In this document: one piece after another, positions 41,568 through 61,707 of the stretch | How positions within the stretch are numbered: position 1 is the first letter of the stretch | Layout: every line of letters begins with the position of its first letter | NCBI GenBank assembly: GCA_048938855.1 | Contig: JBHLLT010000004.1 | Span: 32,001 to 96,000, forward strand | Direction: 5' to 3' | Source: Promethearchaeota archaeon | GTDB lineage: Archaea > Asgardarchaeota > Lokiarchaeia > Sigyniarchaeales > SOKP01 | Length of the DNA: 64,000 nt | Notes under the pieces: model-generated | What the model saw: the letters and a program-made list of their open reading frames with translations, nothing else | What the model was told of the DNA's origin: nothing | The model's database searches: none | Program-made: the position numbers and the translations under genes

Positions 41568-41670
41568 TGCGCCCTCCGGGGATTGAACCCGGGTCGCCAG
41601 GATCACCTTAATGTTTTCTTATAAACAAAAAATTGGCAACCTGGCATACTTACCACTATACTAAGAGCGC
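41568..41670 (-). tRNA. tRNA-Gly(GCC) with a 31-nt intron in the anticodon loop
   Basis: GCGCTCT/AGGGCGC-A acceptor, CCAGG-TTGCCA..[intron]..CCTGG anticodon arm, CCGGG-TTCAATC-CCCGG T arm; 103 nt in total, 72 nt after splicing. Confidence 0.9.
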
Positions 41671-59115: not shown

Positions 59116-59478
59116 ATGACTTGTATCCATGGATTAGATGAAATAAATTGCCCTACTTGTCGGATTTTGAAATCATCATTGCCATTAAATGGGGTAAGTT
59201 CAAAAAAATCGATATTGCCAACTTTTAACACGTTATTATCTAGAAAAAAGATTAATCATGAAAAAGAATTAATTGATGAACTCACCCCTTTAAAGAAAAA
59301 TATGCATCCTCCCAATTTCATCACAAAACCCAGTTTCATTAATGAGATTCCTAATTTTAAAAATAAATTATTCTTAGAAAGATCTAAAGAACTCGATATT
59401 TCTAAAGAGGATAATTATGGGATCACCAAAAAAATTCCTCTCGAAAGCTCAGAATGGAAATTTGAAGAGGAAGAATAA
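59116..59478 (+). CDS. Hypothetical protein with N-terminal CxH..CxxC metal site
   Basis: MTCIHGLDEINCPTC. Confidence 0.65.
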   Translation: MTCIHGLDEINCPTCRILKSSLPLNGVSSKKSILPTFNTLLSRKKINHEKELIDELTPLKKNMHPPNFITKPSFINEIPNFKNKLFLERSKELDISKEDNYGITKKIPLESSEWKFEEEE

Positions 59479-59772: not shown

Positions 59773-60453
59773 ATGGCACAAATGGAAATCACTTGGCTTG
59801 GGCATGCTGCCTTTAAAGTAAAAACACATAGTGGAAGAATTATATATCTGGATCCCTATCAAATTAAAAAAGGAGAAGAAAAAGCCGATATTATTATTTC
59901 CACGCATTCTCATGGGGATCATTTTGATTCAAGTAGCATTAAAAAACTTATAAAGGAAGATACAATTGTTATCGGTCCTGAAAGTATTGCTGATAGCTTA
60001 AAGAAATTTGATGGAACTGCTTTGAAACTAGGTGAATCATTTGACTATAAAGATCTCTCAATAGAGTTAATTCCCGCTTATAATATTAAAAAACCAAACC
60101 ATCCAAAAAGGAATGAATGGGCGGGAATAATAGTGACATCCGAAGATAAAAGTGTATACCATGCAGGAGATACTGAAAGAATCCCCGAAATGAAAGATTT
60201 AGCAAATCGAAATATAACTGTTGCTATGATGCCTTGTGGTGGAACATATACCATGGATTTTGATGAAGCTACAGATTCAATTGTTGATGTGAAGCCTAAA
60301 ATTGCAATTCCAATGCATAATTTACACGTAATTAATGTGTAAAGGCAAAATTGGAGCAAAGATCTCAGCAAATTCAGGGAATTACTCAACGAAAAGGATC
60401 CAAGCATAAAGGTAGAAATATTAGAAGAAGGCGGTAAACCTTTAATAATTTAA
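59773..60453 (+). CDS. Metallo-beta-lactamase-fold hydrolase (UPF0173/UlaG-like), split by a 30-nt candidate intron; join(59773..60319,60350..60453), 216 aa
   Basis: ITWLGHA, DPY, THSHGDH, YHAGDT, GG.YTM, IPMH. After the in-frame TAA at 60340-60342 the frame resumes NWSKDLSKFRELLNEKDPSIKVEILEEGGKPLII*, which fits the expected terminal helix and strand. SD GAGGTG at 59761. Confidence 0.85.
60320..60349 (+). other. Candidate BHB (tRNA-type) intron within an mRNA
   Basis: TCCAA-TGCA-TA^A-TTTACAC-(GTAATTAAT)-GTGTAAA-GGCA-AA^A-TTGGA: exon helix, 4-nt central helix (3 of 4 paired), two 3-nt bulges and a 7-bp intron stem. Confidence 0.7.
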
Positions 60454-60460
60454 ATAATTC

Positions 60461-60472
60461 TTTTTTTTTTTT
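60461..60472 (+). terminator. Oligo-T archaeal terminator of the MBL-fold gene
   Basis: T12 run starting 8 nt after the stop at 60453. Confidence 0.55.
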
Positions 60473-60993: not shown

Positions 60994-61707
60994 ATGGAAA
61001 TAGAGAGCAACAATGAAAGATATTATCTCATTATTGCTGGGATTCTGGTCTTTACTGTATTATCTATTTTTGTTGTACTTGTATTGGGATTTGGGGGCCA
61101 TCTTATGTCTAATTTGAATATCATTCCTTCAAATAATGGCGTTTTTCCTTTAGACTCAAAAGATGATTTTTCTAATAATGCCGGAACTATTGAAATCGGG
61201 TCAGTACCAGAAAAAGGCGTTTTCGGACCTTTTGACACCAAACCCGGTGAGATGAAAATCTTTGATCAATATCTTCCTGTAGATCCACTACCATTAAAAA
61301 TCACTGATGACTATCTAAATGATTATTGGGTAGTTGTGGGCACATATGGTGGTTATTCATGGATAAATGGATACATTAAGGTTATGCAAACCAAATCAGA
61401 TGAAAATCTTTGGTCTAATTTAGTAGGTTATATTAAAATAACCGCTACAGAAATTGAAGGTCCACATGGCTGGACTACTTACAATCTCACATTTTCAATT
61501 GATGGCGATCATCCTATCATTCTAGACAGTAACCATCCCCCAGTCTCTCCTCTTGGAGACTTCTGGGTCAATGGACCAGACAATCTAGATAAATGGGTAT
61601 GGTTAAAGGTTGATACCACATGGGAAGGCTGTCCATTACCCGAACAACAATTTATGGTAATACTGACACAAAAAGTAATTTTTCCGGAGTCCCCAACTCC
61701 AAAATAG
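60994..61707 (+). CDS. Signal-anchored extracellular protein of unknown function
   Basis: N-terminal TM followed by a Trp/Pro/Gly-rich, beta-rich domain. Confidence 0.7.
   Translation: MEIESNNERYYLIIAGILVFTVLSIFVVLVLGFGGHLMSNLNIIPSNNGVFPLDSKDDFSNNAGTIEIGSVPEKGVFGPFDTKPGEMKIFDQYLPVDPLPLKITDDYLNDYWVVVGTYGGYSWINGYIKVMQTKSDENLWSNLVGYIKITATEIEGPHGWTTYNLTFSIDGDHPIILDSNHPPVSPLGDFWVNGPDNLDKWVWLKVDTTWEGCPLPEQQFMVILTQKVIFPESPTPK

What the first reader, a model, noticed from the sequence alone, without database searches (positions are those of the whole stretch)
60302..60359. Candidate tRNA-type (bulge-helix-bulge) intron inside an Asgard protein-coding gene
Seen: the MBL-fold ORF stops at TAA 60340-60342 just after its last metal-ligand motif (IPMH). 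The same frame resumes with a plausible C-terminus (NWSKDLSKFRELLNEKDPSIKVEILEEGGKPLII*, stop 60453) followed by a T12 terminator. The intervening sequence folds as a BHB motif: exon helix TCCAA(60309-13)/TTGGA(60351-55), extendable by TTGC/GCAA; central helix TGCA(60314-17)/GGCA(60344-47), with three Watson-Crick pairs plus one A.G; bulges TAA(60318-20) and AAA(60348-50); intron stem TTTACAC/GTGTAAA with a 9-nt loop. Established: the archaeal splicing endonuclease EndA cuts after the second nucleotide of each 3-nt bulge and RtcB ligates the exons; short mRNA introns of this kind are known mainly from crenarchaeal cbf5. Applying that rule removes exactly 30 nt (60320-60349), deletes the stop and gives CCA ATG CAT AAT TGG (P-M-H-N-W). 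The intron-containing tRNA-Gly in this window implies the machinery is present. Inference: this lineage splices mRNAs with the tRNA machinery, possibly as an on/off switch, conceptually parallel to eukaryotic non-spliceosomal HAC1/XBP1 splicing. I do not know of a description in Asgard archaea. Caveat: a 4-nt AATT direct repeat flanks the insert (60319-22, 60349-52), so the junction is ambiguous by alignment and a transposon footprint or duplication that inactivated the gene is a real alternative.
Basis: partly seen in the sequence, partly recalled or inferred. Interest (0 to 1): 0.93.

Follow-up and report, generated by a model that had tools for sequence, protein, structure and literature searches.

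The report
tRNA-type mini-intron in Asgard hydrolase gene
A 30-base, stop-containing insert that breaks a metal-hydrolase gene of a Loki-type Asgard archaeon has every comparative hallmark of a tiny intron cut out of the messenger RNA by the tRNA-splicing enzymes, a process that the papers I could search document for the coding part of only one other archaeal gene (cbf5).

Summary
Window 60320-60349 is a 30-nt, stop-containing insert in a single-copy MBL-fold hydrolase gene (59773-60453) of a Promethearchaeota (Loki-type Asgard) MAG.

- **Orthologues:** about 60 lack the insert and read P-M-H|N-W, exactly as the bulge-helix-bulge (BHB) cut rule predicts. 21 distinct sequences (15 species genomes, 6 metagenome contigs) carry exactly 30 nt at the same site.
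- **Structure:** the intron stem covaries (8 pairs with double changes, 0/500 shuffles). The intron's 3' core is its most conserved part.
- **Selection:** the intron differs at 0.21 per site, against 0.65 at synonymous sites. Exon 2 has no start codon, yet is as constrained as exon 1 (pN/pS 0.17 vs 0.16).
- **Rivals:** three variants break the flanking AAT repeat. This argues against ribosomal bypass and a target-site duplication.
- **Machinery:** the genome encodes a catalytic and a non-catalytic EndA paralogue, and RtcB.
- **History:** presence is patchy on the gene tree (at least 9 changes), but intron and exon divergence correlate. This fits an old intron lost precisely many times.

There is no RNA evidence, and the on/off-switch idea is untested. 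This scan already noted similar introns in other genes of this genome and in other archaea. No paper I found describes them in Asgard.

The parts
59773..60319 (+). Exon 1 of the MBL-fold metal-dependent hydrolase gene. It ends after the first base of the Asn codon that follows P-M-H.
   Evidence: Pfam PF13483 Lactamase_B_3, 96.6 bits, residues 5-182. PDB relatives 3kl7 and TM_1162 align up to the P-M-H motif.
60320..60349 (+). 30-nt bulge-helix-bulge intron. The boundaries follow the rule 'cut after the second base of each bulge'. Sliding both cuts up to one base upstream or three downstream gives the same product.
   Evidence: Absent from about 60 orthologues. Present as exactly 30 nt at the same site in 21 distinct sequences. 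Single copy in the genome.
60350..60453 (+). Exon 2: the last two bases of the Asn codon, 33 further codons and TAA. It has no in-frame ATG, GTG or TTG.
   Evidence: Translation. Same length and conserved residues in all 13 intron-bearing genus members. pN/pS 0.166, against 0.162 for exon 1.
60309..60313 (+). Exon helix h, 5' strand (pairs with 60351-60355).
   Evidence: 95% of cells paired in 21 sequences, with one pair showing a double change (C-G / U-A). The same inverted repeat CCAAT...ATTGG exists in intron-less genes because of the P-M-H-N-W codons.
60351..60355 (+). Exon helix h, 3' strand.
60314..60317 (+). Central helix H, 5' strand (exon 1; UGCA).
   Evidence: U-A, G-C and C-G are kept in 21, 21 (one G.U) and 20 of 21 sequences. 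The fourth position is a mismatch in 19 of 21 (A.G in 18, A.A in one) and A-U in 2.
60344..60347 (+). Central helix H, 3' strand (intron; GGCA).
   Evidence: The most conserved stretch of the intron together with bulge 2: pairwise difference 0.095, against 0.38 in the loop.
60318..60320 (+). Bulge 1 (UAA). The predicted 5' cut lies between 60319 and 60320.
   Evidence: Geometry. The cut rule is as in Yokobori 2009 (PMC2738675).
60348..60350 (+). Bulge 2 (AAA). The predicted 3' cut lies between 60349 and 60350.
60321..60343 (+). Intron hairpin h': 9-bp stem (60321-29 / 60335-43) and 5-nt loop (60330-34).
   Evidence: 97% of cells paired. 7 of 9 pairs show changes on both sides across 21 sequences.
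60340..60342 (+). In-frame TAA inside the intron. It truncates the protein if the RNA is not spliced.
   Evidence: A stop (TAA, TAG or TGA) sits at this codon in 20 of 21 variants. The 21st has two stops elsewhere in the intron.
60461..60472 (+). Run of 12 T after the stop of exon 2. This is the likely archaeal terminator, so the transcript includes exon 2.
   Evidence: Sequence read.
41568..41670 (-). tRNA-Gly(GCC) with a 31-nt intron (context: the size class of EndA substrates in the same window).
   Evidence: Rfam RF00005, 51.8 bits, 103 nt. ARAGORN in intron mode.

Best explanation
Window 60320-60349 is a 30-nt archaeal bulge-helix-bulge (BHB) intron inside the coding sequence of an MBL-fold hydrolase gene of a Loki-type Asgard archaeon.

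**Proposed mechanism (inferred):**
1. In the pre-mRNA, the codons for P-M-H and N-W-(G/S) pair with each other and with the 3' end of the insert.
2. This forms an exon helix, a 3-4 bp central helix flanked by two 3-nt bulges on opposite strands, and a 9-bp intron hairpin.
3. The heterotetrameric (alpha-beta)2 splicing endonuclease EndA cuts after the second base of each bulge.
4. RtcB joins the exons and probably circularises the intron.
5. This removes the in-frame stop and restores P-M-H-N-W plus the 33-residue C-terminus that the fold needs.
6. Unspliced RNA would give a truncated protein.

**Shown here:**
- the structure and its covariation
- the exact match of the predicted junction to intron-less orthologues
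- purifying selection on both exons and on the intron core
- the presence of the enzymes

**Inferred, not shown:** cleavage and ligation.

**History.** The intron is old. It also occurs in orthologues only 61-66% identical in exon 1, and its divergence tracks that of the gene. It has been lost precisely many times.
For: 1. **Junction.** Of the 41 genus orthologues aligned, 28 lack the insert and read CCAATGCA(T/C)|AA(T/C)TGG. Most other Promethearchaeota orthologues do the same. This is the product of the BHB cut rule.
2. **Recurrence.** 13 of 47 genus genomes with the gene carry exactly 30 nt at the same site. So do 2 more distant MAGs and 6 metagenome contigs. Every one of these genomes has only one copy of the gene.
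3. **Covariation.** 91.8% of cells are paired and 8 pairs have double-sided changes. 0 of 500 shuffles reach any of the five measures, and slid controls reach only 21-59% paired.
4. **Constraint on the intron.** The mean pairwise difference is 0.21, against 0.65 at synonymous sites of the flanking exons. The intronic strand of the central helix (0.095) and bulge 2 (0.067) are the most conserved parts, and the loop (0.38) the least.
5. **Exon 2.** pN/pS is 0.166 in intron bearers, against 0.162 for exon 1 and 0.143 for exon 2 in intron-less genes. Exon 2 has no start codon and is followed by T12.
6. **Fold.** PDB relatives extend about 35 residues beyond P-M-H.
7. **Cut register.** In DZ2S.378, mgL162 and mgL188 the flanking AAT/AATT repeat is broken. 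The BHB cuts still give H-N-W.
8. **Enzymes.** There are two EndA paralogues. One keeps the Y/H/K catalytic pattern and one lacks the His. There is one RtcB. Asgard EndA is reported as the (alpha-beta)2 type with the L1 loop, which allows relaxed BHB motifs (PMC5829648).
9. **Size.** The 30-nt length matches the tRNA introns of the same genome.
Against: - No RNA evidence was available: no spliced junction, circular intron or peptide could be looked for.
- The central helix has only three Watson-Crick pairs plus a mismatch (A.G or A.A) in 19 of 21 sequences, so the motif is near-canonical rather than strict.
- Three of the four central pairs never or hardly vary, so they give no covariation support.
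- Energy minimisation draws the core as an internal loop.
- The 5' half of the motif is coding sequence and would be conserved anyway.
- Transcription and translation are coupled in archaea. How the BHB forms ahead of ribosomes is unexplained.
Confidence: 0.85

Rival explanations
1. Programmed translational bypass (as in phage T4 gene 60 or the mitochondrial 'byp' elements). The ribosome takes off at the AAT codon 60319-21, slides over the hairpin and lands on AAT 60349-51, so the mRNA is never cut.
For: - Matching AAT codons flank the insert in 18 of 21 variants.
- A stable hairpin and an in-frame stop lie in the gap.
- The protein product would be identical.
Against: - Take-off and landing codons do not match in three independent variants: AAT/GAT in DZ2S.378, AGT/AAT in mgL162, AAA/AAT in mgL188.
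- The stop lies 7 codons after the putative take-off codon rather than next to it.
- The most conserved intron bases are the 3' GGCAAA, which bypass does not need but a BHB does.
- As far as I know, bypass elements have not been described in archaea.
Confidence: 0.04
2. Inactivating insertion: a transposon footprint, MITE or small duplication with an AATT target-site duplication. The gene is a pseudogene in the carriers.
For: A 4-nt direct repeat flanks the insert, and the insert has terminal inverted repeats. The gene is dispensable: no orthologue (E at most 1e-60) was found in 7 of 54 genus genomes, several of them incomplete.
Against: - Exon 2 is under the same purifying selection as exon 1 in carriers, while synonymous sites are near saturation.
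- All 13 carriers in the genus keep a 34-codon exon 2.
- The insert is single-copy in the genome.
- It is conserved with compensatory changes.
- The direct repeat is broken in three variants.
- No second intact copy exists in carriers.
Confidence: 0.02
3. The insert stays in the mRNA. Either the stop is read through, giving a protein with a 10-residue insertion, or the gene really ends at 60342 and the downstream 34 codons are made or conserved in some other way.
For: The insert is a multiple of three and keeps the frame.
Against: - All three stop codons (TAA, TAG, TGA) occur at the site, and one variant has two stops.
- The ten codons evolve by RNA-compensatory changes rather than as a conserved peptide.
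- Exon 2 has no start codon.
- Solved relatives need the C-terminal segment.
Confidence: 0.03
4. The hairpin is removed from the RNA, but by enzymes other than EndA/RtcB: an unknown nuclease-ligase pair, or self-cleavage.
For: The central helix is imperfect. No biochemical data exist for any Asgard EndA (the 2026 preprint read says the same for tRNA introns).
Against: The geometry (3-nt bulges, 4-position helix, cuts after the second bulge base) is exactly that of EndA substrates. Both enzymes are encoded. At 30 nt the insert is, to my knowledge, too small for any known self-splicing intron.
Confidence: 0.05

Closest known systems
BHB intron in the cbf5 (pseudouridine synthase) pre-mRNA of Desulfurococcales and Sulfolobales (Watanabe 2002; Yoshinari 2006; Yokobori 2009, PMC2738675)
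   Same: - A short intron inside a protein-coding sequence.
- A non-strict BHB motif.
- Cuts between the second and third bulge bases.
- A hetero-oligomeric EndA.
- Lineage-specific loss of the intron.
   Different: - A different phylum (Asgard/Promethearchaeota) and a different, non-informational host gene.
- A uniform 30-nt length with an in-frame stop.
- A much patchier distribution: at least 9 state changes within one genus.
- cbf5 splicing was confirmed by cDNA; this one was not.
BHB intron in the 5' UTR of Haloferax volcanii HVO_1309 mRNA (PMC7714728)
   Same: An mRNA substrate of the tRNA splicing endonuclease outside tRNA and rRNA.
   Different: It lies in the untranslated leader rather than the reading frame. 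It was shown experimentally, and by a homodimeric-type EndA.
tRNA introns of Asgard archaea (2026 preprint 10.64898/2026.10.13.758758; tRNA-Gly at window 41568-41670)
   Same: The same motif, the same size class (22-32 nt in this genome), the same presumed enzymes, and repeated gain or loss among relatives.
   Different: The host is an mRNA. [quoted passage not shown] The preprint's text never uses the word mRNA and names protein-coding genes only as neighbours used to match tRNA loci (term search).
IRE1/RtcB unconventional splicing of HAC1/XBP1 mRNA in eukaryotes
   Same: Non-spliceosomal removal of a short mRNA intron by an endonuclease that leaves ends for a tRNA-type ligase (RtcB in animals). 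This is from general knowledge.
   Different: The endonuclease is different (IRE1, which recognises two stem-loops). That splicing is stress-regulated and changes the frame. Nothing here indicates regulation, and membership is not claimed.
Translational bypass elements (T4 gene 60; mitochondrial byps)
   Same: A short stop-containing, hairpin-forming gap between mostly matching codons.
   Different: The matching-codon rule fails in 3 of 21 variants, and the stop is not adjacent to the take-off codon.

Membership tests
Archaeal BHB (EndA/RtcB-spliced) intron | [quoted passage not shown] | tested here: met
   The geometry is exact at 60314-20 / 60344-50. The helix has 3 conserved Watson-Crick pairs plus A.G (A-U in 2 of 21), so it is near-canonical or relaxed rather than strict. 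Relaxed motifs are accepted by (alpha-beta)2 EndA with the L1 loop (PMC5829648).
Archaeal BHB (EndA/RtcB-spliced) intron | Flanking helices h (exon-exon) and h' (within the intron). | tested here: met
   h has 5 bp and is 95% paired. h' has 9 bp, is 97% paired, and 7 of its 9 pairs show double changes.
Archaeal BHB (EndA/RtcB-spliced) intron | Cuts after the second base of each bulge give a junction that restores the uninterrupted gene. | tested here: met
   The predicted junction equals the sequence of about 60 intron-less orthologues. It still gives H-N-W in three variants where the flanking repeat is broken.
Archaeal BHB (EndA/RtcB-spliced) intron | Splicing endonuclease and RtcB ligase encoded by the organism. 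| tested here: met
   PF01974 is found twice (100.9 and 71.5 bits) and PF01139 once (566.9 bits) in the genome. There is one catalytic-type and one non-catalytic-type paralogue.
Archaeal BHB (EndA/RtcB-spliced) intron | Spliced RNA, circular intron or in vitro cleavage observed. | not testable with these tools
   No transcriptome data could be reached. No contig at least 95% identical to a carrier lacks the intron.
Translational bypass element | Identical take-off and landing codons. | tested here: not met
   The codons are AAT/GAT, AGT/AAT and AAA/AAT in three of 21 variants.
Translational bypass element | Stop codon directly after the take-off codon. | tested here: not met
   The stop is 7 codons downstream.
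MITE / transposon footprint | Multiple copies in the genome, and neutral decay after insertion. | tested here: not met
   Only one match with up to 3 mismatches, and only one convincing covariance-model hit. The intron is conserved three-fold better than synonymous sites.
UPF0173 / PRK00685 MBL-fold metal-dependent hydrolase (host gene) | Match to the family models above the curated cut-offs. | tested here: inconclusive
   Pfam PF13483 is well above its cut-off (96.6 vs 24 bits). The NCBIfam equivalog NF001911 is below its cut-off (103 vs 144 bits). The gene is a relative of that equivalog, not a certified member.

The most novel reading that the evidence does not exclude
Loki-type Asgard archaea routinely splice messenger RNAs with the tRNA endonuclease-ligase machinery. 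This hydrolase intron would be one of a genome-wide population of about 30-nt, stop-carrying BHB introns. My own reading of the same genome shows uppS broken inside its DGNRRW motif. Earlier, unchecked scan notes list about a dozen more genes. These introns persist for long times and are lost precisely and repeatedly, an intron turnover reminiscent of eukaryotic genes in the closest prokaryotic relatives of eukaryotes. A stronger version, that the stop-bearing intron gates expression according to splicing capacity, is possible but has no support.
Probability: 0.55. Interest if true: 0.88.

Novelty: new member of a known kind. Interest (0 to 1): 0.78.

Why it matters
**State of the literature.** Endonuclease-mediated splicing inside an archaeal coding sequence is documented in print for cbf5 only. 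A Haloferax 5' UTR case adds one more mRNA substrate. No paper in the searchable library describes this kind of splicing in Asgard archaea.

**Consequences if the intron is real:**
1. Gene callers truncate such genes and mislabel them as pseudogenes.
2. The substrate range of Asgard EndA/RtcB includes mRNAs, which bears on ideas about how protein-gene interruption and RNA ligation-based splicing were tolerated before eukaryotes.
3. This locus offers a clean natural experiment on intron retention versus precise loss. It has 21 variants with covariation, and many sister lineages with and without the intron.

The claim can be tested directly with a 70-nt transcript and two recombinant proteins.

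Tried and rejected
1. **Genome-wide de novo scan of G000.** I searched for a relaxed BHB geometry (142,173 structural hits) combined with an ORF-joining filter.
   - It gave 1,955 candidates, against 1,930-2,013 when one cut was deliberately displaced by 1-2 bases. There is therefore no detectable excess.
   - The list for lengths 27-38 is dominated by gene ends.
   - The best-looking hit, in dnaJ (C49:340919-340947), is a false positive.
   - The scan also missed the uppS insert, so it says nothing about how many mRNA introns the genome has.
2. **Covariance model of the intron.** Searched over the whole genome, it found only the intron itself and one hit at E = 0.87. The intron is not a repeated sequence family.
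3. **Homing endonuclease next to the gene.** The neighbouring ORFs have no Pfam match except an AMP-binding ligase.
4. **Recent polymorphism or cDNA-like contigs.** Among 174 classified loci, no pair at least 95% identical differs in intron state.
5. **Selection for the stop codon itself.** It cannot be separated from stem pairing. The only wobble-compatible changes of the TAA keep a stop, and a shuffled intron has an in-frame stop 65% of the time.
6. **The '1 TAA' flagged in G006.** It lies upstream of the start codon and is not an intron.
7. **An alternative BHB register** (bulges shifted by one base). It would remove 32 nt and break the frame, so it was rejected by reading the sequence.

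Full report
**What is there.** The window lies in contig C70 of a 3.95-Mb, 93-contig genome. Its close relatives are deposited as Promethearchaeota/Promethearchaeia, that is Loki-type Asgard MAGs.
- A gene starting at 59773 encodes an MBL-fold metal-dependent hydrolase. Pfam PF13483 scores 96.6 bits. The NCBIfam model PRK00685 scores 103 bits, below its equivalog cut-off.
- The frame stops at TAA 60340-42, seven codons after the P-M-H metal-ligand motif. It then continues open for 36 more codons to TAA 60451-53, which a run of 12 T follows.
- The 73-nt region folds at -17.9 kcal/mol, against -8.2 +/- 2.2 for shuffles.

**Comparative test.** I searched the 54 species-level genomes held for the same genus, then the named genome and metagenome collections.
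- The gene is found in 47 of the 54 genus genomes, and every carrier of the insert has a single copy.
- Of the 41 orthologues I aligned, 28 have no insert and read CCAATGCA(T/C)|AA(T/C)TGG, that is P-M-H-N-W. This is exactly what the BHB rule predicts for the window, with cuts after the second base of each bulge. Yokobori 2009, PMC2738675, confirms that rule.
- Thirteen genus members carry exactly 30 nt at the same site. So do two more distant MAGs (61-63% identical in exon 1) and six further metagenome variants. That makes 21 distinct sequences.
- The insert is therefore real, old and not an assembly artefact.

**Structure.**
- 91.8% of cells are paired, and 8 pairs show changes on both sides, 7 of them in the 9-bp intron stem.
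- None of 500 shuffles reaches any of the five measures. Sliding the partners by 1-3 columns drops pairing to 21-59% (13-sequence version; RNAalifold).
- The central helix keeps U-A, G-C and C-G almost without change. The fourth position is a mismatch in 19 sequences (A.G in 18, A.A in one) and A-U in two. The motif is therefore near-canonical, not strict.
- Within the intron, the loop varies most (0.38 differences per site) and the stem is intermediate.
- The intronic strand of the central helix (0.095) and bulge 2 (0.067) are the most conserved. These bases are non-coding if the insert is removed, so their conservation points to the BHB core as the selected feature.
- The relaxed geometry I used occurs at 1.2e-4 per position, strand and length in this genome.
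- The exon helix (CCAAT...ATTGG) also exists in intron-less genes, because the P-M-H-N-W codons happen to form an inverted repeat. The intron sits in the loop of a pre-existing hairpin, much as tRNA introns sit in pre-existing stems.

**Selection.** The measurements below are among the 13 genus carriers.

| Measure | Value |
|---|---|
| Exon 2 pN/pS, carriers | 0.166 |
| Exon 1 pN/pS, carriers | 0.162 |
| Exon 2 pN/pS, intron-less genes | 0.143 |
| Synonymous differences between carriers, per site | 0.63-0.65 |
| Intron differences between the 15 genome-derived carrier sequences, per site | 0.21 |

- All carriers keep a 34-codon exon 2.
- Exon 2 contains no ATG, GTG or TTG in frame.
- Solved relatives such as TM_1162 continue about 35 residues after P-M-H.
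- The downstream codons must therefore be translated in frame with exon 1, even though a stop lies between them.

**Rivals.**
- *Pseudogene or transposon footprint.* The selection data exclude it. So does single-copy status: one pattern match and one convincing covariance-model hit in the genome.
- *Read-through.* It is unlikely. TAA, TAG and TGA all occur at the stop position, one variant has two stops, and the ten codons change by RNA-compensatory substitutions.
- *Translational bypass between matching AAT codons.* This is the most serious rival. Three independent variants break the match (AAT/GAT, AGT/AAT, AAA/AAT), while the BHB cuts still yield H-N-W. The same variants break the AATT 'target-site duplication'.

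**Machinery.**
- The genome encodes two EndA paralogues. The 197-residue protein keeps the Tyr/His/Lys pattern. The 202-residue protein lacks the His. This is my reading against the known catalytic triad.
- It encodes one RtcB.
- This fits the (alpha-beta)2 type with the L1 loop reported for Asgard archaea, the type that accepts relaxed BHB motifs (PMC5829648).
- ARAGORN in intron mode calls introns in 27 of 39 tRNA predictions, many of them 22-32 nt, including the 31-nt intron of tRNA-Gly in this window. Some of its long-intron calls are doubtful.

**History.**
- On a maximum-likelihood tree of the spliced coding sequences, the carriers are scattered. The tree needs 11 state changes, well-supported branches force at least 9, and the carriers are no more clustered than shuffled labels.
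- Yet intron divergence correlates with exon divergence (Mantel r = 0.54, p = 0.01), and distant orthologues carry a recognisably related intron.
- The simplest reading is an ancient intron inherited with the gene and lost precisely many times.
- Loss could occur by slippage between the short flanking repeats around the hairpin, by recombination with a cDNA of spliced mRNA, or by allelic exchange. I could not separate these.
- No pair of sequences at least 95% identical differs in intron state, so turnover is not rapid.
- No homing-endonuclease gene lies nearby.

**Context and novelty.**
- In the searchable literature, splicing of a BHB intron inside an archaeal coding sequence is documented only for crenarchaeal cbf5. 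A Haloferax 5' UTR intron is a second mRNA substrate.
- Five searches found nothing on mRNA introns in Asgard archaea. A term search of a 2026 preprint on Asgard tRNA introns found no use of the word mRNA.
- Earlier notes of this scan report similar mini-introns in other genes of this same genome (rpl11, uppS, cdhC, a CoA-transferase, AMP phosphorylase, a zinc-ribbon gene), in another Promethearchaeota genome and in DPANN archaea.
- I treated those notes as leads. I verified only that uppS in this genome reads D-G | 30 nt with TAG | N-R-R-W.
- My own genome-wide scan was too noisy to count such introns.

**Verdict.** This is a new member, in a new phylum and a new host gene, of the known but very sparsely documented class of endonuclease-spliced mRNA introns. 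Splicing itself is inferred from comparative evidence only. The regulatory 'switch' idea has no support.

Noticed in passing
L130:1465-1512 (= G000:C16:18880-18927, + strand): The uppS (cis-prenyltransferase) gene of the same genome has its invariant DGNRRW motif split as D-G | 30-nt hairpin with an in-frame TAG | N-R-R-W. My strict BHB scan did not catch it, so its geometry may be relaxed.
   Followed up: partly
L143:828-875, L186:828-875, L188:822-869, L162:834-881 (metagenome contigs): These are variants of the same intron. One has TGA as the stop. One has two TAA at other positions. Two have a broken AATT flanking repeat. Together with TAA and TAG in the genomes, all three stop codons occur.
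   Followed up: yes
L125:1453-2046 (-) and L126:1210-1818 (+): There are two EndA paralogues. The first keeps the Tyr/His/Lys catalytic pattern and the second lacks the His. This looks like an alpha (catalytic) plus beta (structural) pair.
   Followed up: partly
window 41568-41670 (-) and the whole genome: ARAGORN in intron mode calls introns in 27 of 39 tRNA predictions of this genome, many of them 22-32 nt. A few calls with introns of 1-1.6 kb look unreliable.
   Followed up: no
L043 (G012:C48:37500-39300): Three genus members (G012, G043, G057) carry two tandem, diverged copies of the hydrolase gene (about 71% and 62% identical to the query). Neither copy showed an internal stop in the searches, and I did not inspect them further.
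   Followed up: no
window 59116-59478 (+) and 60994-61707 (+): The ORFs flanking the hydrolase gene (120 and 237 residues) have no Pfam match at all. The first starts with a CxxC-containing segment.
   Followed up: no
window 60309-60355: The exon helix CCAAT...ATTGG is an inverted repeat created by the P-M-H-N-W codons and is present in intron-less orthologues too. The intron therefore occupies the loop of a pre-existing mRNA hairpin.
   Followed up: partly
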